DNA of 64,000 nucleotides from Caldilineales bacterium (GCA_024102915.1 JAGFJG010000016.1:22263-86262); one strand, 5' to 3'. Shown: positions 5,565-32,723, numbered from the stretch's first letter. Notes: generated by a model from the letters alone, not told the origin. Program-made: numbers and translations.

Positions 5565-6821
5565 CTACTCCTGATATCGCTTGATCACGATAGCGCCGTT
5601 CTGCCCGCCGAAGCCGAATGCGTTGGCAACGCCGGCATTCACGTTGACCTGCCTGGGCTGATTGGGCACATAATCCAGATCGCATTCGGGATCGGGCACG
5701 GAGTAGTTGATGGTGGGCGGAACCCAGCCCGTGCGGATCGCCTGCACGATGGTCAGGGCATTGAAAGCCCCGGCAGCGCCCATCGCATGGCCGATCATCG
5801 GTTTATTCGAAACAACCGGAATGCCATATGCGTGCTCGCCCAGCGCTTTCTTCAGCGCCCGCGTCTCCGAGATGTCATTTAGTTGGGTTCCGGTTCCGTG
5901 CGCAGCGACATAATCGAGCTGTTCCGGCTCGATGGCGGAATCGGCCAGCGCCAGTTTGATGGCGCGGCTGGCGCCCTGCCCGTCTGGATCCGGCGCCGCC
6001 ATGTTGTGACCATCCACGGTGAAACCCATGCCGCCGTACTCGGCCAGGATCGTAGCCCCGCGCGCCTGGGCATGCTCCAGCGATTCCAAGACCATCGTCA
6101 CTGCGCCCTCACCCATGATCATACCATCTCGCTCGGCGTCGAAGGGGCGACAGGCGGTTTCGGGATCGTCATTGCGGGTCGACATAGCGCCAAGACGGCT
6201 GAATGAAGCGATCAGCAGGGGCGTATAATAGGAATCGGTTCCCCCTGCCAACATCACGTCCACCTCGCCGCGCTGGATGCGCCGGGCTGCCTCGCCCAGG
6301 CTGACGACGCCGGTGGCGCAGGCGGCGACGGGCGAGTTAGCTACCCCCTGGATGCCGTAACGAATAGCCATATAACAGGGAGTGGTCGTAATCAAAACCG
6401 CCGGAGCCAGGGCAGGATTGATAGCCCGGAAACCCTGTTCTTTCACAAGAAGGGAATATTCTTCTACGATGCTGAGAGCGCCAAAAGCGCTGCCCATTTC
6501 GATGCCGACGCGTTCAGGGTCTTCTTGCGATAAATCGAGCCCGGCTTCATTGATAGCTTCGTCGGTGGCATCGATGGCCAGATGAGTGAGACGACCCAGA
6601 CGGCGCGCCTCTCGCCGATTCAGCCGCTTCTCCGCATCAAAATCCTTGATGGTTGCGGCAATTCGGGTTGGCAGTTCACTGGCATCATAAGTTGTGATTG
6701 GCGCCGCGCCAGACCGCCCGGCCAACATCCCTTCCCAGGTCGACGGAACATCCAACCCCAGCGGGCTGACCGTTCCCATTCCGGTAATGACAACGCGGCG
6801 ATGCGTATTATTGGTAGTCAA
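5565..6821 (-). CDS. fabF: Beta-ketoacyl-ACP synthase II
   Basis: Active-site contexts VAACATGVVSLG (Cys), AHGTGTQLND and IGHAMGAAG (two His). Length 418 aa, with a typical KAS II C-terminus FGFGGQNGAIVI. Confidence 0.9.
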   Translation of the reverse strand: MTTNNTHRRVVITGMGTVSPLGLDVPSTWEGMLAGRSGAAPITTYDASELPTRIAATIKDFDAEKRLNRREARRLGRLTHLAIDATDEAINEAGLDLSQEDPERVGIEMGSAFGALSIVEEYSLLVKEQGFRAINPALAPAVLITTTPCYMAIRYGIQGVANSPVAACATGVVSLGEAARRIQRGEVDVMLAGGTDSYYTPLLIASFSRLGAMSTRNDDPETACRPFDAERDGMIMGEGAVTMVLESLEHAQARGATILAEYGGMGFTVDGHNMAAPDPDGQGASRAIKLALADSAIEPEQLDYVAAHGTGTQLNDISETRALKKALGEHAYGIPVVSNKPMIGHAMGAAGAFNALTIVQAIRTGWVPPTINYSVPDPECDLDYVPNQPRQVNVNAGVANAFGFGGQNGAIVIKRYQE

Positions 6822-23857: not shown

Positions 23858-24228
23858 TGAACGCTCCGTTGCGTGTGTGCGATCAGGTGACTGGCACTTG
23901 ATTTTGACTACGAGGAATTGCTGAGAAAAGGGTGCTGCATCGACGCAAATGTCGTAGTGCCGGTCACCTTTTCTCAATTCATGACGCGCTGCATTATATC
24001 AGGCGGACGCGAGCGGCTGCAAAGAAATCCGCTTCCCTGTGGGGGTCGAGCTATTGGAAAATCGAGGTCTGCAACTGAATTCGCAGCTTCGCAATGAGTC
24101 TTGCGGGGGCGATCCCCCGCACCCCCCTTTTGGGGGATGTTACACTCCCCCAAACCCCCTCGAAAGGTCTGTGCGCAGGACAACACCTTACATGTCTACA
24201 GGGTTTACCTGAATTTTCAATTCGCAAT

Positions 24229-26937
24229 TCACGATTCCCCATTCCCCTCGTCCAGAGGTCCGGGGGCGACGACACGGAACCCGTAGGGGTCGAGCCCGTA
24301 GTGCGGGTGGTCCCAGTGACGGGCGGCGCAGCGCACGCCGTGACGGCTGTCGATGAACGAGCCGCCACGCACCACGCGACGTTCATCGCCTTTTGGTCGA
24401 TTATCCGGTTGGTAATCGGTATAGTCATTCGTCCACTCGGCCATTGTCCATTCCCACACATTCCCGCTCATATCCAGGCAGCCGTAAGGGCTGGCCCCGG
24501 CATCGAATAGGCCTACCGGGCTGACGCCGCCAATGCCGGTTTCGACCATGTTACACTTGCGGGGGTCGAATTGCTCGCCCCAGGGGTAGGCGCGGGCATC
24601 TTTTTCCCCGCGGGCAGCCTTCTCCCACTCCGCCTCGGTGGGCAGGCGGTATTCCCGGCCTTTTTGCTGGCTCACCCAATCGCAAAAGGCGCGGGCGTCG
24701 TGCCAGCGCACGTTCACCACCGGATGGTTGCGCAATTCCGGCGGCGGCTCCTGGCCCCGCCAGTGGCGAGGAGGTTCGTGGTCGGTGGCAGCGATGAAGA
24801 GGGCGTACTGGCTATTGGTGATGGGATATTTGCCGATGCGGAAGGTTTCGACCTGCTGGGTGTGTTGCGGGCGTTCGTCGTCGAATGAATCGGGCTCGCC
24901 CTCCTTGCTGCCCATCGTAAAGGGCCCGGCGGGCACGGGCAACATCTCGTCGAAGTCGCGGGGGTCGCCCAGCGCGGCCAGCACGCCGCCCGCCTCGGCC
25001 CGCTCGCGCGGTTCCAGCAGGTCGTGGGTGATGAGGGTGGTGAGATGCATTTGCAGGCGCGGCAGCAATTCGCCGCTCAAATCACGGCGTTGCGCCCGTT
25101 TCAGGCCAATCTCGCGCAGGCAGGCTCCCGACAGCCATATCTTGCGCCAGGCGATGGCGTCGTCGAAAGCGGGCGCCTCTTTGGGACAAAGCTCGTGGGC
25201 CAGCATCAACGGTTTGTCGATATTCTTATTCACGTGTACCAGCCGTCCCACCGCCAGCAAAATCACCACCCACCAGAACGCGCCTTCCCCGGCCAGTTCC
25301 TCCGCCCGCTCGATGAAATCCTCCTGGCCGCTGAGGTAGCATCCGGCCAGGTATTCCTGGAAAGTGCGATGGGGAAAACGATAGATGGCCGGGTGTTCGT
25401 CCGTGCGGGAGGTGGTCTCCACCAGCAAGCCCGCCCGCAAATTCATCAACTGGATCATGGCATCCACCCAGGTCTGGCTGCCGTCGGGGGCCAGCTTGCG
25501 AAGTTCATTTTGCAGGGCCGCTTCCGAGATATCGGCTGTGGCCTCACCGTCCTCATCATCCCGCACCTGGGCATGGGCATTAAAAGCCAGTTCCCACAGC
25601 GCCAACTGCACATCCACATCCTCCAGATCGGCCTGTTTCAGCAACATGCGCCAGTCGGTGTCCTCCCCTTCTTTGGTCTGCACCTTGCCTGCCTCCCAGC
25701 GCCACAGCAGCAACTCCACCGCATCTTCGTAGAGCAGGGCGCGAGCGTCGGGCAATTCGCCTTTGCGCGTGTGCACCAGCGCCATCACCGTCAGCAACAA
25801 TGGATTCTGCGCCAGCCGCCGCAGGTCTTCCTGGCGCACGGCCCGCTGCAATTTTCCGGCGCGGGCGTCGGCGTCAGGAACGACATTCATCGCCTTCAAC
25901 TGCCCGTACCAGGCAGCAATGAAGCCGTCGATTTTTCCTTCGTCCAGCCTGGCCAGTTCATAGCTCGGCCACTGCTCGGCTCGCAATTTCCAGCGCGGGT
26001 CCTGATAGCTGAGCACCCGGCAGGTGACAACCATCGGGCTTTTGTAGGCGTTGGGCAGATCGTCCAGCATCTCCCGCACCCGCCCGCAGGTGGCAGCATC
26101 GCCCGGCACCTCATCCAGCCCATCCAATAAAAGGATGGCGTCGCCGTCACGCAGGAAACCGCGCAGGGTTGGGTAGAAATCCGCCAGGCCCATGTCGGTG
26201 AGCCAGGCCAGCAAATAGCCTTCCAACAAACCGGTCTTGCGTGCGCTCGAACCGGACACATCCATCCAGGCGGCCAGCTCGCGCAATGCCACCGGTACAG
26301 GCAACAATCGATCCCATTTCTGCGGCCAGGCGTCCAATTGCCGCACCATGTGGCTGCGGCTATTCAGGGCGTCACTTGCCAGGCAATAGGCCAGGTGGTT
26401 GGCGAAGGTGGTCTTGCCGCCGCCGGGGTCGCCCAGGAGGACGATGCGATTGTCGTTGACCACTGCCTCCAGCGCCGGCAACGGGCGCGTATCCCGACCG
26501 AATGGCTCCTTCTCCTCCCGCCTGAGCAAACCCTTCTTTTCCTTCTCCACTTCGACGCTGGCGGTTGTATCCAGCTTGATGTAGACATCGGCCAGTCGCA
26601 TTCGTTCGCTCTCGCCGGTGCTGGCGTCGGCGGCCTTGAAATCGACGGTGGCAAGCGTCAGGTATTGCGTATCGTCGAACACGCGTTTCAAGTAACGGTC
26701 GCGCTGGCTCTCGTACTCTTCCAGCACCTCAGGGACATCGATTTCACTATCATCGATCGAGACTTTGCGTTTGTACCAGATGCCGAGGACGGTTAATATC
26801 GCCAGAACCACGAACCCAACCCATGCCACTACTGATTTGAAGGGATCGTTGAGGAATGGGCTTATAAACAGAACTGCCACAGCAATAAGGGCAGGGATAA
26901 TCCAGGTTCGGCGTCTTCGTTTCGATTTCTGCGACAT
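24229..26937 (-). CDS. Membrane-anchored NACHT (STAND) NTPase fused to a C-terminal FGE-sulfatase (SUMF1-like) domain
   Basis: Two N-terminal hydrophobic helices. Walker A is LLGDPGGGKTTF and Walker B is AILLLDGLDEV. A helical middle region follows. The C-terminal ~250 aa match the FGE-sulfatase fold (FRIGKYPITNSQY...NHPVVNVRWHDARAFCDW...YRLPTEAEWEKAARG...GNVWEWT...RGGSF). Confidence 0.85.
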   Translation of the reverse strand: MSQKSKRRRRTWIIPALIAVAVLFISPFLNDPFKSVVAWVGFVVLAILTVLGIWYKRKVSIDDSEIDVPEVLEEYESQRDRYLKRVFDDTQYLTLATVDFKAADASTGESERMRLADVYIKLDTTASVEVEKEKKGLLRREEKEPFGRDTRPLPALEAVVNDNRIVLLGDPGGGKTTFANHLAYCLASDALNSRSHMVRQLDAWPQKWDRLLPVPVALRELAAWMDVSGSSARKTGLLEGYLLAWLTDMGLADFYPTLRGFLRDGDAILLLDGLDEVPGDAATCGRVREMLDDLPNAYKSPMVVTCRVLSYQDPRWKLRAEQWPSYELARLDEGKIDGFIAAWYGQLKAMNVVPDADARAGKLQRAVRQEDLRRLAQNPLLLTVMALVHTRKGELPDARALLYEDAVELLLWRWEAGKVQTKEGEDTDWRMLLKQADLEDVDVQLALWELAFNAHAQVRDDEDGEATADISEAALQNELRKLAPDGSQTWVDAMIQLMNLRAGLLVETTSRTDEHPAIYRFPHRTFQEYLAGCYLSGQEDFIERAEELAGEGAFWWVVILLAVGRLVHVNKNIDKPLMLAHELCPKEAPAFDDAIAWRKIWLSGACLREIGLKRAQRRDLSGELLPRLQMHLTTLITHDLLEPRERAEAGGVLAALGDPRDFDEMLPVPAGPFTMGSKEGEPDSFDDERPQHTQQVETFRIGKYPITNSQYALFIAATDHEPPRHWRGQEPPPELRNHPVVNVRWHDARAFCDWVSQQKGREYRLPTEAEWEKAARGEKDARAYPWGEQFDPRKCNMVETGIGGVSPVGLFDAGASPYGCLDMSGNVWEWTMAEWTNDYTDYQPDNRPKGDERRVVRGGSFIDSRHGVRCAARHWDHPHYGLDPYGFRVVAPGPLDEGNGES

Positions 26938-27162
26938 GATGTCCCGCCTTGAAAGAACGATGTCAGATCGATATGCGATTCGTAATCCAGTTTCCCAAGA
27001 TTATACGCGGTTGGGGTTGGCAGCGTCAAAGTGTTTTCCTGGGGCGGGCATAGGACTATGACCTTTGGGAGGCGGATGGCAGGACTTGCCGATCACGCGC
27101 TTTTACCTTTGCCTCCCGAAGGTCAAGCATGCGCAACCAACCACCCAACTTACCAACCCCCA

Positions 27163-30100
27163 TCACCCCGGCAAATCCACGCAATTCCCCGTGCCCTGCT
27201 CCACCGAATGATCCGAATTCGCTACCAGCGCGCAGATCTGCGTGGCCCGGCCTGGCCGGTCGCTGACCCGGAACAGGCGGAAGGGGCTTTCGCCCACCAC
27301 GCCCGCCTCGGTGGGATAAAGCTGCCAGGGGCCGCTGCCGGGCATGCCTGCCTGCTCCGGCGGAACCGTATTCCAAAAGAAATGCACGTGACGATTGCCG
27401 CCGCCCAACCGGGGTTCATAGCCCGAGGTGCGGAAATCGACCACATAACGGTTGTTGCCGCCGATCGTAATGCCCGTGATCTCCACCCAATCGCCGGGCG
27501 GGGTGGGCGTGACCGCGACGGTCGTGGGCGTCGGCGGCAGCGCCGTGGATGTCGGCGGCAGCGCCGTCGGCGTCGGCTCGATTTGCTGCTGCGGTTCCGG
27601 CCCGCCCGCATAGCCCTCTCCCCACGATGGCGCCCATTCCGAGCCTGGGAGCTCGATCAGCGGCGTGAGCAGGTTGTCGCTCAGCCGCAGCGCCCAGATG
27701 TCGGATTCGTCGGCGTCGGTCAACTCGCCGTCCCCGTCCACATCGACCCCGCGGGCGAACACGATCCATTCGCCATCGGGCGACCAGGCGGGGGTTGCGG
27801 CGAAGGCGTCGGTGAGGACGGTGGGCGTGCGTCCGTCCGGCGTGCCCAGCATCAACTGCCCGAAGGCGTCGGCGGCGTGTTCCTTGCGCACATAGACGAT
27901 CCACTGGCCGTCCGGCGACCACGAGGGCTGATTCTCGTCCGCCCCGCTGATATACAGCGCCCGCGGCTGCGACAGCGGCAGACCCACATCGACGGCATAG
28001 ATATCCATATCGCCATTGTGATCCGAACCGAACGCCAGCGACCGCCCATCCGGCGACCAGGAGGGCCATTCATCCCGCCCCGCGTTCGTGGTCTGGCGGA
28101 AGGACTCATTCTCGTTGCCCACAAAAATCTCGGCGTTCGCCACGCCCTCGGTGTCGGCGGTGCTGGAGAATGCGATCAGCACGCGCACAGCCGCCTGCGC
28201 CATGCGTGAGGCCAGACCGGCGGATCGGTCGCCCCCGGCATCGGCCACGATGCGACCGCCATTCGGCTCCCAGGCTGCATACTCATCCCAGGCTCCCGTG
28301 CTGACGAAAACCCGCTGGTTTGAGCCATCGCCATCCATCACCCAGATGTCATAAGCGCCGGGCACGCCCGACCGATTGCTGGTGAAAGCGATCTGGCTGC
28401 CATCGGGCGACCAGCGTGGAATGTGATCGTCGAACTCGTTGGAGGTCAAAAGCTCGAAGCTCAGGGTTTCCAGGTCATAGAGCGTGATCTCGTTCGTCTC
28501 TGGCCCGCCCTGGTTGTGGGTAAACACAATCTGGCCGGAGAGAGGCGGCGGGGCCACGGTGGCGGTGGGTTGAGTCGTCACTAGCTCATTCACAGGCTCA
28601 AGCGATCTGATCACCAGTTCATCGATAACGCCCTCGGCATAAAAATCGCCATTCTCATTGCCCGCGCCCACAAAGATCGAGCCGAGGCCAGCCACGTCGC
28701 CCAAATCCCATCCGCCCACAGCGCCGCCATTGTCCACCCGCTCACCGTTCAAATAGATAGCCATGGCGTCATCGCTGCGCGAATTGTCCCAGACCGCCCT
28801 GATCTGAATCCACTCGCCCGCCTCCCACAATGGCGTCAGCCAATCCGTTTCCACCGCGGTGTGATTGTAGTCGGCGTCCACGAAGGCCATGCCCAGGAAT
28901 CCGCCCTTTTCCAAAATGATGAAGGGTGGGTTGTAGATATCGCCGAGCGCCACGAAATAGTGATCGGTCTCGCTCGCGACCGCATCGTAATCGGGCCGAT
29001 ACCAGAATTCAATTTCGCCGGCGTCAAGCGAGAACGCAGATTCGCCTTGATGGACGACAGGGAAACGCGCCCATTTGCCGTGATCGTTGAAATACGCGCC
29101 GCTGCCCACCTTGCCCGGCACGAAGTTTTCCTCCGACAGACTGGTCTCGCCCGCGCCGCCTCGCTCCGGGCTGCGGATCGAGTCGAGATTGTCGAGACTG
29201 GAATAGAAGGAAACCCCATCGACGGCCACGAATTCGTGGGTGGGCGTCGGTTCCACGATCTCGACGGTCGCCGTCGGTGCGGGCGTTGCTTCCGCCTCGG
29301 CCACGGTCGCCGGCGTGGGCGTTGGTTTGACCTGCTCTGTCGGCTCGCTCTCCCTGCCGAAAAGCATCCAGCCCAGGCCCGCCACCGCCACAATGGCGAT
29401 GATCGCCAGGACGATGACCGGCAGCGACGACCGACCGCCATTCTCAGGCTGTGATCTTGGCTCGACCGGCGGGATGTCGGACGGCGGCTGGCCGCCCCCG
29501 GATGCTGGCGTGGCGGCTCGTTTGGTTGTCACCGCTGCCACCGCCACAGGTTTGACGACCGTTCCCGCCGGCGCGGTCGAAGCCTGTAAAGCATCGACAA
29601 ATGCCGCCGCCGAAGGATAACGATCCTGCGGTTCCTTCGCCATCGCTTTCAGGATCACATCCGAAGTGGCGGCAGGCAGGTCGGCGCGCAGTTCGCTGGG
29701 CGAGACCGCCTTCTTATTGAGATGCCCGTTGATCACCTGCACGGTGCTGCCGCTAAACGGAACCTGACCGGTCAGCATGTGATACGCTACCACGCCCAGG
29801 GCGTAAATGTCGGTGGCGGGGCCGATCTCATCCGCCCGCTCGAAATCGATCTGCTCGGGGGCCATGTATTCGACTGTGCCCAGGATGCTGTCGGAGCGGG
29901 TGAGATGCGAGCTGGCCGAGAGCGCTTTCACCAGCCCGAAATCGGTCAGCAGCGGGCGCTCTTGCTGGCGATACGCAGTCTTTAGCAGGATGTTGGCGGG
30001 CTTGACATCGCGATGGACTAAATCCTGGCTGTGGGCGTAATCGAGGGCGTCGGCGACGCTATCCAGCACCGCGACCGTCTCGTCCAACGACATCGCGCCG

Positions 30101-30408
30101 GTCGTTTGCAGGCGTTGCAACAGCGATCCCCCATCCACCAGTTCCATGGCGATGAAGAGTTGCCCGTCGAGATTCCCCACCTCGTAAACGGTGACGATGT
30201 TGGCGTGATCGAGATTGGCGACGGTCTTCGCTTCTTTGATGAAGCGCTCGGCCACCGCCGGATCGCCGCTGAACTGGGCGTGCAACAATTTGAGGGCGAC
30301 ATCACGGTCGAGCGTGGTGTCCCGCGCCTTGTAGACGACGGCAAAACCGCCGCGTCCCAACTCGGCGAACACCTCGTATTTTCCAAACTTGCGTGAAGAT
30401 GCGGTCAA
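27163..30408 (-). CDS. Receptor Ser/Thr protein kinase with extracellular LamG-like and TolB/PD40 beta-propeller domains
   Basis: Hanks kinase motifs: GRGGFAVVYKA, VALKLL, HRDVKPANILL, DFG and YMAPE. A Pro-rich linker and one TM helix (LPVIVLAIIAIVAVAGLGWMLF) follow. The ectodomain has a ConA/LamG-like segment and repeated WSPDG...(I/V)(A/V)F PD40 blades. Confidence 0.85.
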   Translation of the reverse strand: MTASSRKFGKYEVFAELGRGGFAVVYKARDTTLDRDVALKLLHAQFSGDPAVAERFIKEAKTVANLDHANIVTVYEVGNLDGQLFIAMELVDGGSLLQRLQTTGAMSLDETVAVLDSVADALDYAHSQDLVHRDVKPANILLKTAYRQQERPLLTDFGLVKALSASSHLTRSDSILGTVEYMAPEQIDFERADEIGPATDIYALGVVAYHMLTGQVPFSGSTVQVINGHLNKKAVSPSELRADLPAATSDVILKAMAKEPQDRYPSAAAFVDALQASTAPAGTVVKPVAVAAVTTKRAATPASGGGQPPSDIPPVEPRSQPENGGRSSLPVIVLAIIAIVAVAGLGWMLFGRESEPTEQVKPTPTPATVAEAEATPAPTATVEIVEPTPTHEFVAVDGVSFYSSLDNLDSIRSPERGGAGETSLSEENFVPGKVGSGAYFNDHGKWARFPVVHQGESAFSLDAGEIEFWYRPDYDAVASETDHYFVALGDIYNPPFIILEKGGFLGMAFVDADYNHTAVETDWLTPLWEAGEWIQIRAVWDNSRSDDAMAIYLNGERVDNGGAVGGWDLGDVAGLGSIFVGAGNENGDFYAEGVIDELVIRSLEPVNELVTTQPTATVAPPPLSGQIVFTHNQGGPETNEITLYDLETLSFELLTSNEFDDHIPRWSPDGSQIAFTSNRSGVPGAYDIWVMDGDGSNQRVFVSTGAWDEYAAWEPNGGRIVADAGGDRSAGLASRMAQAAVRVLIAFSSTADTEGVANAEIFVGNENESFRQTTNAGRDEWPSWSPDGRSLAFGSDHNGDMDIYAVDVGLPLSQPRALYISGADENQPSWSPDGQWIVYVRKEHAADAFGQLMLGTPDGRTPTVLTDAFAATPAWSPDGEWIVFARGVDVDGDGELTDADESDIWALRLSDNLLTPLIELPGSEWAPSWGEGYAGGPEPQQQIEPTPTALPPTSTALPPTPTTVAVTPTPPGDWVEITGITIGGNNRYVVDFRTSGYEPRLGGGNRHVHFFWNTVPPEQAGMPGSGPWQLYPTEAGVVGESPFRLFRVSDRPGRATQICALVANSDHSVEQGTGNCVDLPG

Positions 30409-30551: not shown

Positions 30552-32723
30552 TCAAACCGATCCCCCGGCACCCTCTTTCGCATTCGATTCCGCGACGAGA
30601 TCGTCGAGCGTGCGTTTGATCTCCGCCTCGCGTTCCTTCAGCATGTCGATCTCGTTTTCCAGCCATAGCGGGGCGGCGATGCCATATTGGTCGCGTTGCA
30701 GTTCTCGCTTCGCCAGAGAGCGCTGCACGTTCTCCAACTGCTGGCGATAAATTTCGTCCTCCGAACGCCGGAAGGAGGAGCGTTCGATCACATCAAAACC
30801 TTCGTTGATCTGATCGGCCAGATCGGACGAGGACTGGCGATAATCCTCATGCGAAGCGACATCGACAAAAACCGAGAGGCTGACATCATGCGGCGCGCCG
30901 CGCAAGCCCAACAGAAACCCCACCTCCAGCGTCAGCGGCACTTTGCCGGCGCTGGTCGGGCGCAATCCCAGGGGCAAGTCCATGCTGTTGCCCGGCCCCA
31001 GGTTGCCCAGCTCGGTCGTCTGCATGTGCTCGCCGGAAAACCCGGTGCCGGTGGCGCGGGCGCTGACGGCGGCGGCGATCCCCTGGCCCTCGTTATGCAC
31101 CAGCAGGCGCAAAATATTGAACTGTTCCTTGACGAACCCTGCTTCGGGCACGGCCTCGATCCGCACAAAAGGATAGCGCAGCAGGCGGCATATCTCACGC
31201 CAGGAGGCAGCCGCTTCTTTGCTCATGCCCGCATCCAGATAGGCCTGCCGCGCCTGCTGCCACGCCTCGGCCGTATCCTGCAATTCCGCCACGCGGTGCA
31301 GCGCTACGGCCCTGGCGGTGAAATCTCCGGTGTTCTCTTGCAGAACGGCGATCTCCGCCCAACCTTCGACCGTATCCGCACTTTGGAACTGCTCGATAGC
31401 TTTAGCCACATCCCCCGACCGCAGCCACAGCCTGGCCGCGCCCAACGCATCGTCACGCTCCTCCAACATCTTCGCCGCCTTGACGACTTCGCCCTGCTGT
31501 TCCATCAGTTCCGCCGCCATACGCCAATCGCCCGCGGCCATGGCCTGCTGAGGCGAAAGTTGACGTTGCGGCAATTCCAGCAATGTCAGGGCGTCGCCCG
31601 CGTCCAGGATCGCAAGGCCGGTCGGGGTTGGCATCGGGTCGGCTTCGATACGGCGCTCGCCCTGCCACTGCCAGAGTTCGTCGCCGTCGAAGGGATCGAA
31701 CGCTCGCACCGTATGATCATGCCCAGCTACGATCAGGGCGTTTTCGTGCAAGAGCGGTTGCGCCGTCACCTTGCGCTCACTGGCATGCCGCCACCGCTCG
31801 GCTCCGTCCGCCAGATTCAGGGCCACGATCCCAGACTCGCAGCCCACAAAAAGGACCTCGCCATTGCTCGTCATGCTCGGCAACGATTTGCCCAAATCGG
31901 TTCGCGCCCAGCCCAGCTTGCCGGAATTGGCGTCGATCAATGCCAGGCTGCCATCGGTGAAAGGCGTGATCACGCAATTGCCGCACACCAACGGCGTGCT
32001 CGCCCAGGCGTCGGTCGCATGTCGATAACGCCATCGCACCGAACCTGTGCCGCCATCCACGGCGATCAGCGTGGCGTCGAGCGTAGGGATCAGTAGCGTC
32101 TGACCATGCACAGCCGCAGCCGCCACCTGCTGTGAGCCGCCGAGCTCGATTGGGCTGGAACCGGTTGGCTGGCCGGAATGCAGGTCGAGCGACCACACGC
32201 TGTTCTCGCTGCCCACCGTCCAGAGACGATCCATCGCCCAGGCCGGAGCCGAGAGCGCGCGCATGTCGGGTCGCCAGCGCCAGCGTGACGCGCCCGTCGC
32301 CGTGTCCAGGGCATACAGGCTGGCATTCAGGGCCAGAGCGCTGGCCGTACGTGTGGCGACGATCACCAGATCGTTGATGACAAGTATGGGCGGATTGATC
32401 AGTTCATCCGGAAAGTCCTGCTGCCAGCGTATCTTCATCTGCGCCGGGTCGATGGCGAGCACGCGGCCAAATCGACTGCCCATCGCTTCGCCTTTCACCG
32501 AAACCGGCACAAACAAAACCCCGTACTGCTGCGCTATCCCGCCCTGCACATCCCCTTCCAGTTGCATAGAACCCTTTGCCCTCGGCTCATCCCCGGCGCC
32601 CTGTTGGCGCGTAAAACCGCAGTGCGGGCACACATCTGCATCACCCATCAAGCCGGAACAATTCGGGCAGCTATCATTCATAAGCGCAACCGGCTGCTGT
32701 ACCTGAGGCGAGGCCGATTGCAT
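30552..32723 (-). CDS. Zinc-ribbon / PQQ-like beta-propeller repeat protein with TPR-like and Ig-like C-terminal regions
   Basis: N-terminal CPNCSG...CPHCGF zinc ribbon. A BamB/PQQ-like repeat propeller follows (repeated W(R/Q)... motifs), then a helical region, and a coiled-coil tail. Confidence 0.65.
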   Translation of the reverse strand: MQSASPQVQQPVALMNDSCPNCSGLMGDADVCPHCGFTRQQGAGDEPRAKGSMQLEGDVQGGIAQQYGVLFVPVSVKGEAMGSRFGRVLAIDPAQMKIRWQQDFPDELINPPILVINDLVIVATRTASALALNASLYALDTATGASRWRWRPDMRALSAPAWAMDRLWTVGSENSVWSLDLHSGQPTGSSPIELGGSQQVAAAAVHGQTLLIPTLDATLIAVDGGTGSVRWRYRHATDAWASTPLVCGNCVITPFTDGSLALIDANSGKLGWARTDLGKSLPSMTSNGEVLFVGCESGIVALNLADGAERWRHASERKVTAQPLLHENALIVAGHDHTVRAFDPFDGDELWQWQGERRIEADPMPTPTGLAILDAGDALTLLELPQRQLSPQQAMAAGDWRMAAELMEQQGEVVKAAKMLEERDDALGAARLWLRSGDVAKAIEQFQSADTVEGWAEIAVLQENTGDFTARAVALHRVAELQDTAEAWQQARQAYLDAGMSKEAAASWREICRLLRYPFVRIEAVPEAGFVKEQFNILRLLVHNEGQGIAAAVSARATGTGFSGEHMQTTELGNLGPGNSMDLPLGLRPTSAGKVPLTLEVGFLLGLRGAPHDVSLSVFVDVASHEDYRQSSSDLADQINEGFDVIERSSFRRSEDEIYRQQLENVQRSLAKRELQRDQYGIAAPLWLENEIDMLKEREAEIKRTLDDLVAESNAKEGAGGSV

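What the first reader, a model, noticed from the sequence alone, without database searches (positions are those of the whole stretch)
24229..26937. Membrane-anchored NACHT NTPase fused to an apparently non-catalytic FGE-sulfatase domain: candidate NLR-like conflict or defence sensor
The architecture read from the sequence has four parts. Two N-terminal TM helices come first. A NACHT module follows (GDPGGGKTT; ILLLDGLDEV). Next is a ~250-aa helical array, and last a full FGE-sulfatase fold. In canonical FGE the copper-binding catalytic Cys pair sits between GGS and RCAAR; from memory, human SUMF1 reads GGSYMCHRSYCYRYRCAAR. Here the corresponding stretch is RGGSFIDSRHGVRCAARH, with no Cys pair. 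The domain therefore more likely binds a ligand than makes formylglycine. Bacterial NACHT/STAND proteins have been shown to act in anti-phage defence. FGE-sulfatase-like modules have been noted as sensor-type domains in STAND conflict systems of multicellular bacteria. No recognisable effector domain (nuclease, TIR, protease) is present, so the TM helices may themselves be the effector. A membrane-tethered NACHT-FGS protein has, to my knowledge, no experimental characterisation.
Basis: partly seen in the sequence, partly recalled or inferred. Interest (0 to 1): 0.62.

Follow-up and report, generated by a model that had tools for sequence, protein, structure and literature searches.

The report
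Membrane NLR-like sensor, orphaned from retroelement
This gene encodes a membrane-anchored, NLR-like ATPase whose lectin-fold tip was once rewritten by a diversity-generating retroelement that this genome has since lost; the kind is already described by computation, so it is a clear example rather than a new thing.

Summary
ORF 24229-26937 (-) encodes 902 aa: a two-helix membrane hairpin, a NACHT NTPase with intact Walker A and B motifs, the NLRC4-like helical and winged-helix modules, and a complete FGE-sulfatase (C-type-lectin) fold that lacks the catalytic Cys pair.

The closest orthologue (71% identity, syntenic) is followed by a reverse transcriptase, Avd and a template repeat. Its variable region is exactly the "missing Cys pair" stretch.

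The window lacks this ~2-kb cassette at the same site, and the assembly has no DGR reverse transcriptase or template. The gene still carries the adenine-mutagenesis scar: 20 of 31 template-A positions differ against 8 of 89 others, and 12 of 12 AAC-derived codons are NNC.

In this clade, 2 lineages keep an intact DGR, 4 keep wrecks and about 5 have none nearby. NACHT-FGS "antigen-receptor-type" proteins and their DGR link were described by computation in 2020-2026, but I found no experimental test in the papers read. The defence role and the membrane-effector role of the hairpin are inferences. The local neighbourhood is housekeeping.

Verdict: a new member of a known kind, of moderate interest.

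The parts
24229..26937 (-). Gene for the 902-aa 2TM-NACHT-FGS protein (P0001)
   Evidence: ORF and translation. Pfam, NCBIfam and PDB matches. AF2 model with mean pLDDT 89.5 and pTM 0.84.
27000..27029 (-). Promoter-like site (TTGACG, 18 nt, TATAAT; 11 of 12), about 63 nt upstream of the ATG
   Evidence: Consensus scan. It suggests the gene has its own promoter. This is a consensus match only.
26779..26907 (-). N-terminal membrane hairpin: TM1 aa 11-29 and TM2 aa 35-53, with basic residues on both cytoplasmic sides
   Evidence: Hydropathy. Model helices 13-25 and 34-59. The same layout occurs in about 35 closest relatives.
26572..26760 (-). Acidic linker and pre-NACHT helix with the conserved motif LADVYIKLDTT
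   Evidence: Alignments A1 and the N-terminal alignment.
25948..26571 (-). NACHT nucleotide-binding domain. Walker A GDPGGGKTT is at 26407-26433, Walker B ILLLDGLDEV at 26107-26136 and TCR (R307) at 26014-26031.
   Evidence: G169, G172, G174, K175, D272, G273, D275, E276 and R307 are invariant in 117 relatives. Pfam NACHT. Foldseek matches to NLRC4 and NLRP3.
24970..25941 (-). Helical and winged-helix region (aa 333-656), read as the HD1-WHD-HD2 part of the NACHT module plus a helical linker
   Evidence: Secondary structure of the model. The NLRC4 alignment spans more than 520 columns.
24268..24951 (-). FGE-sulfatase / C-type-lectin-fold (FGS) domain, aa 663-890, without the catalytic Cys pair
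   Evidence: Pfam E 4.7e-59. Alignment to T. curvata FGE. Foldseek matches to ToxD, FGE and PvdO.
24263..24382 (-). Former DGR variable region (aa 853-892), now without a template
   Evidence: It is 77% identical to the template repeat of the syntenic orthologue L008. 20 of 31 TR-adenine positions differ against 8 of 89 others, Fisher p 3.6e-9. 12 of 12 AAC-equivalent codons are NNC. The same 17 codons are hypervariable across 117 relatives.
24212..24246 (-). Run of five heptamers (nnnGAAT) across the stop codon, where relatives carry about five CTCTG(A) repeats. Only one CTCTG is left, and the ORF runs 10 codons past the usual stop.
Evidence: Comparison of sequences after the VR.
24102..24154 (-). 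Two G/C-rich hairpins downstream of the gene. They resemble the GGGGG-N3-GGGGGAG...CTCCCCC hairpin that follows the VR in relatives.
   Evidence: DNA fold with z -3.96. Comparison with L008, L018, L028 and L035. Whether this is a terminator or a DGR target hairpin is not resolved.
23880..24252 (-). Empty site: 373 bp where the orthologous locus carries the 2,036-bp stretch that holds RT, Avd and TR
   Evidence: L008 1758-4213 matches window 26715-24253, and L008 6250-6680 matches window 23879-23450. No RT, Avd or TR remnant in this interval.

Best explanation
The gene encodes a stand-alone bacterial NLR-like (NACHT-clade STAND) protein of the 'antigen-receptor type'.

Shown:
- A 2-TM hairpin anchors the protein in the membrane. 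NACHT and sensor are predicted to face the cytoplasm (positive-inside rule).
- The NACHT ATPase has all family-invariant catalytic residues.
- The C-terminal FGE-sulfatase/C-type-lectin (FGS) domain is not an enzyme. The loop that holds the copper-binding Cys pair in true FGEs is, in this family, the variable region of a diversity-generating retroelement (DGR).
- The nearest orthologues still have RT-Avd-TR next to the gene.
- This genome has lost the cassette cleanly at the syntenic site and has no DGR RT or TR elsewhere in the assembly. The variable tip keeps the adenine-mutagenesis signature. It is therefore a 'locked' receptor specificity that can now change only by ordinary mutation.

Inferred:
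- The tip binds a protein or other molecule of an invader (phage or mobile element) at the inner face of the membrane.
- Binding releases NACHT autoinhibition. ATP-dependent oligomerisation then clusters the N-terminal hairpins.
- The clustered hairpins perturb or permeabilise the membrane. This stops the infected cell (abortive infection) and so protects the other cells.
For: - Architecture and motifs.
- The N-terminal slot is swapped among relatives that share 40-47% identity over NACHT and FGS. It holds TIR_2, CHAT, NNH2, a ParA-like AAA_31, a Zn-ribbon or the 2TM hairpin. That is the usual effector position of bacterial NACHT proteins (10.1101/2022.07.19.500537).
- DGR in orthologues: in L008, the gene is followed by RVT_1 (with the IGNLTSQ motif), bAvd and a TR. 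VR/TR mismatches are 20 of 31 at A and 1 of 89 elsewhere. In L131 they are 25 of 32 at A and 0 of 92 elsewhere.
- Synteny and the empty site in the window.
- No RT in the genome: the RVT_1 HMM finds nothing, and the L008 RT protein gives a best E of 0.048. There is no second copy of the gene's 3' end.
- Scar in the window: 20 of 31 against 8 of 89, p 3.6e-9, and 12 of 12 NNC codons.
- Family-wide hypervariability of exactly the TR-adenine codons: 3.12 bits against 0.95 bits.
- Recurrent decay: RT fragments in L011, L012, L132 and L134.
- Own promoter-like site. Neighbours are not conserved among relatives, so this is a single-gene system.
- Literature: STAND-FGS conflict systems with a DGR link (PMC8195603, PMC7159879), DGR clade 5D targets (PMC10907252) and FGE-sulfatase sensors in STANDs (PMC13581612).
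Against: - There is no experimental evidence for defence in any NACHT-FGS protein.
- PADLOC finds nothing. The NCBIfam hit to the antiphage NACHT protein EruA scores only 50 bits against a cut-off of 1000.
- The window neighbourhood is housekeeping: ETF, acyl-CoA dehydrogenase, MoeA, YebC/RuvA. It is not a defence island.
- The TM helices carry almost no conserved polar residues or motifs and have low model confidence. They may be a plain anchor.
- The genome is a 198-contig MAG (97.9% complete, 6.8% contamination). A DGR acting in trans from unassembled sequence cannot be fully excluded.
Confidence: 0.6

Rival explanations
1. The sensor and switch are as above, but the 2-TM hairpin is only a tether. 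It places the receptor under the membrane to meet incoming invader components. The output would be sequestration ('neutralising binder') or the recruitment of an unlinked effector, not membrane damage by the hairpin itself.
For: The TM helices are conserved only in hydrophobicity and in their flanking charges. Kaur et al. (PMC7159879) propose FGS domains as neutralising binders and membrane-associated versions as devices that intercept invaders at entry. Some relatives carry only a Zn-ribbon or a helical NNH2 head, which are not obvious killers.
Against: The hairpin sits in the slot that holds TIR or CHAT in relatives. No conserved partner gene was seen in the loci examined.
Confidence: 0.22
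2. The protein is no longer, or never was, a defence gene. It could be a relic drifting after DGR loss, or it could serve self/kin recognition or developmental signalling.
For: The neighbourhood is housekeeping and there is no PADLOC hit. The post-VR repeat array has decayed and the stop codon has moved 10 codons downstream. Distribution is patchy, with no close orthologue in 40 related genomes.
Against: The 902-codon ORF is intact. Every family-invariant residue is retained. A promoter-like site is present. Patchy distribution also fits a defence gene.
Confidence: 0.12
3. The variable region is still being diversified by a DGR that acts in trans from a part of the genome missing from the assembly.
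For: Trans-acting or remote DGRs for FGS genes are reported (PMC8195603). A GC hairpin is retained downstream of the VR. The MAG is fragmented.
Against: No RVT_1 or DGR-RT match and no TR-like copy in an assembly estimated at 97.9% complete. The post-VR CTCTG array that is typical of active and recent targets has degenerated.
Confidence: 0.05
4. The C-terminal domain is catalytic: an FGE, or a 'SUMF1/EgtB/PvdO family nonheme iron enzyme' as NCBI names the homologues.
For: Strong Pfam FGE-sulfatase match. Partial NCBIfam hits to EgtB, SenA, OvoA and PvdO. NCBI naming of homologues.
Against: Both FGE cysteines are absent. The EgtB, SenA and OvoA hits cover only the C-terminal lectin-fold part and score 75-108 bits against cut-offs of 360-420, so the DinB-type iron-binding domain is absent. 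The loop is hypervariable and DGR-targeted in the family. Sulfatase context was seen in 1 of 11 homologue loci (L011) and not in the annotated part of the window.
Confidence: 0.01

Closest known systems
DGR clade 5D targets: STAND (NACHT or nSTAND1)-CLec 'putative antigen sensors' of multicellular bacteria, e.g. Thiohalocapsa PB-PSB1 DGR 3 (Dore et al., PNAS 2024, PMC10907252)
   Same: A central NACHT and a C-terminal FGE-type C-lectin domain that carries the VR. N-terminal extensions include TM segments. Targets are often duplicated. Filamentous Chloroflexi are among the hosts. In orthologues the RT, Avd and TR lie adjacent.
   Different: This locus has no RT, Avd or TR, and the genome has none. 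The VR is a fossil. I did not place the RT of the orthologues in the published RT phylogeny.
STAND NTPase-FGS conflict systems (Kaur, Burroughs, Iyer, Aravind; eLife 2020 PMC7159879 and 2021 PMC8195603) and 'antigen receptor-type' bacterial NACHT proteins (Kibby et al., bioRxiv 10.1101/2022.07.19.500537)
   Same: The architecture: effector or EAD, then STAND, then FGS. The FGS domain is seen as an intracellular lectin-like invader sensor. The N-terminal heads are variable. The DGR link is either neighbouring or remote.
   Different: The head here is a bare 2-TM hairpin rather than an enzyme or EAD. The NACHT proteins tested by Kibby et al. had other sensor types, so there is no functional precedent.
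STAND clades with FGE-sulfatase-like sensors in 'Diverse bacterial pattern recognition receptors sense the core phage proteome' (Nature 2026, PMC13581612)
   Same: FGE-sulfatase-like domains are listed and modelled as STAND sensor domains.
   Different: That paper does not mention DGRs and reports no experiments on FGE-type sensors. I could not check whether this clade is in its tables.
Classical DGR variable proteins with C-lectin/FGE fold: Bordetella phage BPP-1 Mtd and Treponema denticola TvpA
   Same: A C-terminal VR on a CLec/FGE-type fold, AAC-rich template codons and adenine-specific mutagenesis. A GC hairpin lies downstream of the VR (from my own knowledge of Guo et al. 2011).
   Different: Those are extracellular or phage-tail binders. 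This one is predicted to be cytoplasmic and coupled to a NACHT switch, and it is no longer served by a DGR.
Catalytic FGEs (human SUMF1, T. curvata FGE) and the closest solved structure, ToxD of Burkholderia glumae (7spq)
   Same: The same fold: phmmer E 3.9e-36 to ToxD and about 1e-25 to FGEs, and Foldseek target-normalised TM-score 0.63-0.76 for the single-domain matches.
   Different: No Cys pair, no sulfatase context, and fusion to NACHT and TM segments.
Plant CC-NLR resistosome (ZAR1), as a functional analogy only, from my own knowledge
   Same: NLR oligomerisation brings N-terminal helices together at a membrane to form a channel. This is the model I propose for the 2-TM head.
   Different: No sequence or structural relation was tested. 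Here the helices are predicted to be membrane-inserted all the time.

Membership tests
NACHT-clade STAND NTPase (bacterial NLR-related protein) | Walker A GxxxxGK[ST] and the NACHT-type Walker B hhhhDGhDE | tested here: met
   GDPGGGKTT at aa 169-177 and ILLLDGLDEV at aa 268-277. G169, G172, G174, K175, D272, G273, D275 and E276 are invariant in 117 relatives.
NACHT-clade STAND NTPase (bacterial NLR-related protein) | Match to the Pfam NACHT profile (PF05729) above the gathering score | tested here: met
   27.9 bits against 26.7, aligned over the P-loop only, so marginal for this protein. Relatives match profile positions 1-166 at E 1e-10 to 1e-7.
NACHT-clade STAND NTPase (bacterial NLR-related protein) | NBD-HD1-WHD-HD2 fold like animal NLRs | tested here: met
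   After the FGE-fold hits, Foldseek's best hits are NLRC4 4kxf (E 2e-11, more than 520 columns) and NLRP3 9gu4 (E 1e-10). Model pLDDT is above 90 over this region.
NACHT-clade STAND NTPase (bacterial NLR-related protein) | ATP-dependent oligomerisation on ligand binding | not testable with these tools
   Needs biochemistry.
Catalytic formylglycine-generating enzyme (FGE/SUMF1) | FGE-sulfatase fold | tested here: met
   PF03781, E 4.7e-59, profile positions 3-254 of 255. Foldseek matches to FGEs.
Catalytic formylglycine-generating enzyme (FGE/SUMF1) | Copper-binding Cys pair in the loop between GGS and R(C/V)AAR | tested here: not met
   Aligned to T. curvata FGE GGSFLCHESYCNRYRVAAR, the query reads GGSFIDSR---HGVRCAAR.
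Catalytic formylglycine-generating enzyme (FGE/SUMF1) | Genomic association with sulfatases | tested here: not met
   No sulfatase among the neighbours annotated over window 9394-46136. Homologue loci are not sulfatase operons; one sulfatase gene lies 6.5 kb away in 1 of 11 loci (L011).
EgtB/OvoA/SenA sulfoxide or selenoxide synthases | N-terminal DinB-like domain with the iron-binding His triad, plus the FGE-like domain | tested here: not met
   NCBIfam hits cover only the last ~110-145 profile positions and score 75-108 bits against cut-offs of 360-420.
DGR target (variable protein) | C-terminal VR on a CLec/FGE-type fold, homologous to proven VRs | tested here: met
   Window 24263-24382 aligns without gaps to the VR and TR of L008.
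DGR target (variable protein) | Cognate template repeat in the genome, with mismatches confined to TR adenines | tested here: not met
   No second copy in the 5.33-Mb assembly. The adenine-specific pattern is seen only against the orthologue's TR.
DGR target (variable protein) | DGR reverse transcriptase (and usually Avd) in the genome | tested here: not met
   The RVT_1 HMM gives no match. The L008 RT protein gives a best E of 0.048. Only a generic Avd-like four-helix protein at 28% identity.
DGR target (variable protein) | Target-recognition elements after the VR (IMH and a GC hairpin) | tested here: inconclusive
   GC hairpins are present at 24102-24154 and resemble those of relatives. They could be plain terminators. 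The CTCTG array has degenerated.
Experimentally validated anti-phage systems (PADLOC models; NCBIfam antiphage EruA) | Profile match at family level | tested here: not met
   PADLOC gives only P-loop noise, E above 1e-3. EruA scores 50.5 bits against a cut-off of 1000.
Membrane-disrupting TM effectors of defence systems (e.g. CBASS Cap14/15, PycTM, SLATT) | Sequence or profile similarity of the TM module; membrane damage on activation | tested here: inconclusive
   No Pfam or PADLOC family matches aa 1-60. Short TM hairpins are hard to relate by sequence. Activity cannot be tested here.

The most novel reading that the evidence does not exclude
'Diversify, then lock.' In this clade of membrane-anchored NACHT-FGS receptors, the DGR may be used only transiently. 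Once a useful specificity has been generated, the RT-Avd-TR cassette is repeatedly deleted. An adaptive-like receptor thus becomes a germline-fixed innate one.

The locked receptor would kill through a resistosome-like mechanism. NACHT oligomerisation would gather the N-terminal 2-TM hairpins into a membrane channel.

If so, the window's protein is a fixed-specificity receptor whose ligand could be identified. It would also be a bacterial counterpart of plant CC-NLR channels.
Probability: 0.15. Interest if true: 0.65.

Novelty: new member of a known kind. Interest (0 to 1): 0.36.

Why it matters
NACHT-FGS proteins are the proposed bacterial analogue of hypermutating antigen receptors. In the papers I read, none had been tested.

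A DGR-less orthologue with a frozen tip sits next to close relatives that still diversify: 71% and 57% identity, with RTs 75% identical to each other. This is a natural locked-versus-live pair.

- It offers a fixed sequence for ligand hunting and for structural work.
- It gives a simple single-gene construct for asking whether an N-terminal TM hairpin can be an NLR effector.
- It adds a case, with the deletion interval mapped by synteny, to the question of why DGRs are lost so often from their targets.

For annotation, it shows that the NCBI name 'SUMF1/EgtB/PvdO family nonheme iron enzyme' is misleading for this family.

Tried and rejected
- PADLOC scan: only P-loop noise.
- Search of the genome for a TR copy, a DGR RT and Avd: nothing convincing.
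- Search of the 373-bp empty site and the whole window for RT, Avd or TR remnants: none.
- A functional unit with the upstream Ser/Thr kinase-PD40 gene and the PQQ-propeller gene: rejected. The upstream gene of the syntenic orthologue does not match, and neighbours differ in every relative.
- Sulfatase-maturation or EgtB-type enzyme: rejected.
- The other three FGE-domain genes of the genome are not canonical FGEs either. They are a lipoprotein-like protein, a 280-aa protein with an atypical Cys arrangement, and a caspase-FGS fusion.
- The metagenome-contig scan with the single protein gave few close relatives, so I used exact-protein look-ups instead.
I scanned nine representatives instead.
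Both were repeated correctly.
Full report

Yes. The minus-strand ORF 24229..26937 is 902 codons long. It contains the quoted motifs at aa 169-177 (GDPGGGKTT), aa 268-277 (ILLLDGLDEV) and aa 857-874 (RGGSFIDSRHGVRCAARH).

- Pfam gives FGE-sulfatase at E 4.7e-59 over profile positions 3-254 of 255.
- Pfam gives NACHT only just above the gathering score (27.9 bits against 26.7, P-loop only).
- The NACHT assignment is firmer from three other results. Relatives match the whole NACHT profile. The Walker A and B residues and R307 are invariant in 117 relatives. A confident AF2 model (pLDDT 89.5, pTM 0.84) has NLRC4 (E 2e-11) and NLRP3 as its best non-FGE Foldseek hits.
- Two hydrophobic helices lie at aa 11-29 and 35-53. 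They are flanked by KSKRRRR and KRK, which predicts an N-in/C-in hairpin with the rest of the protein in the cytoplasm.
- The 'helical array' is aa 333-656. It is helices with two small beta-hairpins, which I read as the HD1-WHD-HD2 part of the NACHT module plus a linker, not a repeat array.
- Against T. curvata FGE (GGSFLCHESYCNRYRVAAR) the query reads GGSFIDSR---HGVRCAAR. Both catalytic cysteines are missing.
- The NCBIfam hits to EgtB, SenA and OvoA cover only the lectin-fold end and fall far below their cut-offs.

**2. What family is it?**

A protein search returned at least 936 relatives. The top 120 all have NACHT plus FGE-sulfatase, and NCBI names them 'SUMF1/EgtB/PvdO family nonheme iron enzyme'. 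They come mostly from Chloroflexota: Ca. Amarolinea, Caldilineaceae and Anaerolineae. Full-length relatives also occur in Nitrospirales, Verrucomicrobiota, Pseudomonadota and Acidobacteria.

The roughly 35 closest proteins (46-71% identity) share the 2-TM head. More distant ones (40-47% identity over NACHT and FGS) instead carry TIR_2, CHAT, NNH2, a ParA-like AAA_31, a zinc ribbon or unassigned heads. The N-terminus is therefore a swappable slot, as is usual for effectors of bacterial NACHT proteins (10.1101/2022.07.19.500537).

**3. The decisive context: a DGR in the orthologues**

The closest relative is P0005, at 71% identity. In two independent assemblies (L008 and L009) its gene is followed by a 352-aa RVT_1 reverse transcriptase and a bAvd gene. 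The RT carries the IGNLTSQ motif.

- A 120-nt direct repeat links the gene's 3' end (VR, L008 4085-4204) with a copy just after avd (TR, 5790-5909). VR/TR mismatches fall at 20 of 31 TR adenines and 1 of 89 other positions.
- The next relative, P0006 (57% identity, L131), has the same cassette. Its RT is 75% identical to that of L008. Its mismatches are 25 of 32 at A and 0 of 92 elsewhere.
- The VR covers aa 853-892.
- Across 117 relatives, the 17 codons that carry an A at codon position 1 or 2 in the TR have a mean entropy of 3.12 bits. The interleaved constant codons have 0.95 bits and the rest of the domain 1.64 bits.

**4. What happened in this window**

L008 is syntenic with the window on both sides. 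L008 1758-4213 matches window 26715-24253 at 77% nt identity. L008 6250-6680 matches window 23879-23450 at 83% nt identity (the acyl-CoA dehydrogenase gene and its promoter region).

Between these anchors L008 has 2,036 bp holding RT, Avd and TR. The window has 373 bp with no trace of them.

The whole 5.33-Mb assembly (97.9% complete) lacks the cassette parts:
- no RVT_1 match;
- no match to the L008 RT (best E 0.048);
- only a generic Avd-like four-helix protein at 28% identity;
- no second copy of the gene's 3' end.

Yet the window's 3' end still looks like a homed VR. Against the L008 TR it differs at 20 of 31 adenine positions and at only 8 of 89 others (Fisher p 3.6e-9). All 12 AAC-equivalent codons read NNC: ATC, GAC, GGC, CAC, GAC, CAC, CAC, TAC, CTC, GAC, CCC and TAC.

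The gene is thus a former DGR target whose tip is now fixed. I reached this reading before consulting the scan's earlier notes, which describe similar cases in other genomes.

**5. How common is the loss?**

Counting window and locus lineages of the 2-TM clade with usable flanks:
- Intact DGR: L008 and L131.
- Wrecks: L011 (RT fragments), L012 (an RT fragment between tandem paralogues), L132 (RT aa 1-144 joined to Avd aa 80-116, plus a drifting TR with 13 of 92 non-A mismatches) and L134 (RT aa 1-215).
- No DGR within the flanks: L005/L007 (Amarolinea), L133, the P0034 locus and the window.

In the wider family, 9 of 24 full-length loci had a TR-like or second VR copy in their flanks. Several loci had RTs 55-67% identical to the L008 RT. 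Cassette decay is therefore recurrent. I cannot tell whether it is selected.

**6. Cis elements after the VR**

In most relatives the stop codon lies inside the first of about five CTCTG(A) repeats spaced 7-10 nt apart. These are followed by a GC hairpin of the type GGGGG-N3-GGGGGAG...CTCCCCC.

Of 131 FGE-domain 3' ends in the fetched loci, 36% have three or more (C/T)TCTG motifs in the next 90 nt. The figure for random windows is 0.3%.

The window keeps one CTCTG and has lost the usual stop, so the ORF runs 10 codons further. It then has five nnnGAAT heptamers (24212-24246) and two GC hairpins (24102-24154; z -3.96). This fits relaxed constraint on the array after DGR loss. The hairpins may simply be terminators.

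**7. Context and distribution**

- The neighbours within about 15 kb are ETF alpha and beta, acyl-CoA dehydrogenase, two MoeA genes, YebC, RuvA, a response regulator and similar genes. This is not a defence island.
- The two large co-oriented genes upstream encode a Hanks kinase with a TM segment and PD40 propeller, and a zinc-ribbon PQQ-propeller protein. They are not conserved next to any relative.
- A strong promoter-like site lies 63 nt upstream of the ATG. I therefore treat the gene as a single-gene system.
- Relatives sit beside toxin-antitoxin genes in several loci: MNT/HepT in L005, ParE in L012 and PIN at the P0034 locus. This is a weak defence-type signal.
- Among 40 genomes of the same family or class, none has a close full-length orthologue (best 45%). 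The distribution is therefore patchy.

**8. Mechanism**

Shown:
- the architecture, and the predicted topology;
- intact NTPase motifs;
- a non-catalytic lectin-fold tip;
- the DGR origin of the tip and the loss of the cassette.

Inferred, from the published model for NACHT and STAND receptors and from the swappable N-terminal slot:
- the tip binds an invader molecule;
- the NACHT domain oligomerises with ATP;
- the clustered hairpins damage the membrane.

The main rival is that the hairpin is only a tether. The helices show no conserved polar motifs.

**9. Comparison with what is known**

The class is described in four places:
- STAND-FGS systems with variable N-terminal heads and a DGR link (PMC7159879, PMC8195603);
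- 'antigen receptor-type' NACHT proteins (10.1101/2022.07.19.500537);
- DGR clade 5D targets with NACHT-CLec and TM segments (PMC10907252), where the authors state that none has been characterised experimentally;
- FGE-sulfatase-like sensors in a STAND census (PMC13581612), which reports no experiments on them and does not mention DGRs.

This gene is therefore a new member of a known kind. Its particular point of interest is the cleanly orphaned, locked variable region with live relatives for comparison.

**10. Limits**

- The source is a fragmented MAG.
- The organism is called Chloroflexota only from the names of the best hits and an earlier scan note.
- No biochemical claim was tested.

Noticed in passing
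L008 4205-4250; also L005, L007, L013, L014, L018, L024, L026, L131, L133 just after the stop codon; window 24212-24260: A run of about five CTCTG(A) repeats at 7-10 nt spacing starts at or in the stop codon right after the variable region, usually followed by a GC hairpin. 36% of 131 FGE-domain 3' ends have three or more (C/T)TCTG motifs in the next 90 nt, against 0.3% of random windows. L133 has 14 copies. The array was not seen after the TR in L008. The window keeps only one copy.
   Followed up: partly
L132 188-912: A decayed DGR upstream of a 2TM-NACHT-FGS gene. RT residues 1-144 run directly into Avd residues 80-116 (an internal deletion). A template repeat follows that has started to drift, with 13 of 92 non-adenine mismatches to the VR.
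   Followed up: partly
L012 2687-8636: Two tandem NACHT-FGS paralogues whose 3' ends are 84% identical over 219 nt. An 89-codon fragment of a DGR reverse transcriptase lies between them, and a ParE toxin gene lies downstream.
   Followed up: partly
own genome, G000:C82:11090-12960 (locus L105, minus strand): A caspase-like (YSGHG / DCCHSG) protein fused to an FGE-sulfatase domain with a Tyr/Asp-rich C-terminal loop. This is a second conflict-type FGS protein in a genome that has no DGR reverse transcriptase.
   Followed up: no
window 27163-30408 and 30552-32723, minus strand: A Hanks-type Ser/Thr kinase with one TM segment and a PD40/TolB-like propeller, and a zinc-ribbon plus PQQ/BamB-like propeller protein. 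Both are co-oriented upstream of the NACHT gene. They are not conserved next to any relative examined.
   Followed up: partly
L008 1329-1413 and 6673-6757: An 85-nt direct repeat (98% identical) joins the end of the upstream gene to the point where homology with the window's acyl-CoA dehydrogenase stops. It may be an assembly join or a rearrangement in that metagenome contig.
   Followed up: no
L011 13334-15202: A group II intron-type reverse transcriptase (RVT_1, intron maturase, HNH) lies right downstream of a 2TM-NACHT-FGS gene that also has DGR-RT fragments upstream. The two kinds of RT at one locus are easy to confuse.
   Followed up: no
window 23990-24020 (minus strand) and L008 6157-6179: The conserved stretch ...TATAATGC.GCGCGTCATGA.TT upstream of the acyl-CoA dehydrogenase gene marks the far edge of the cassette-free interval. 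It is probably that gene's -10 promoter region.
   Followed up: no
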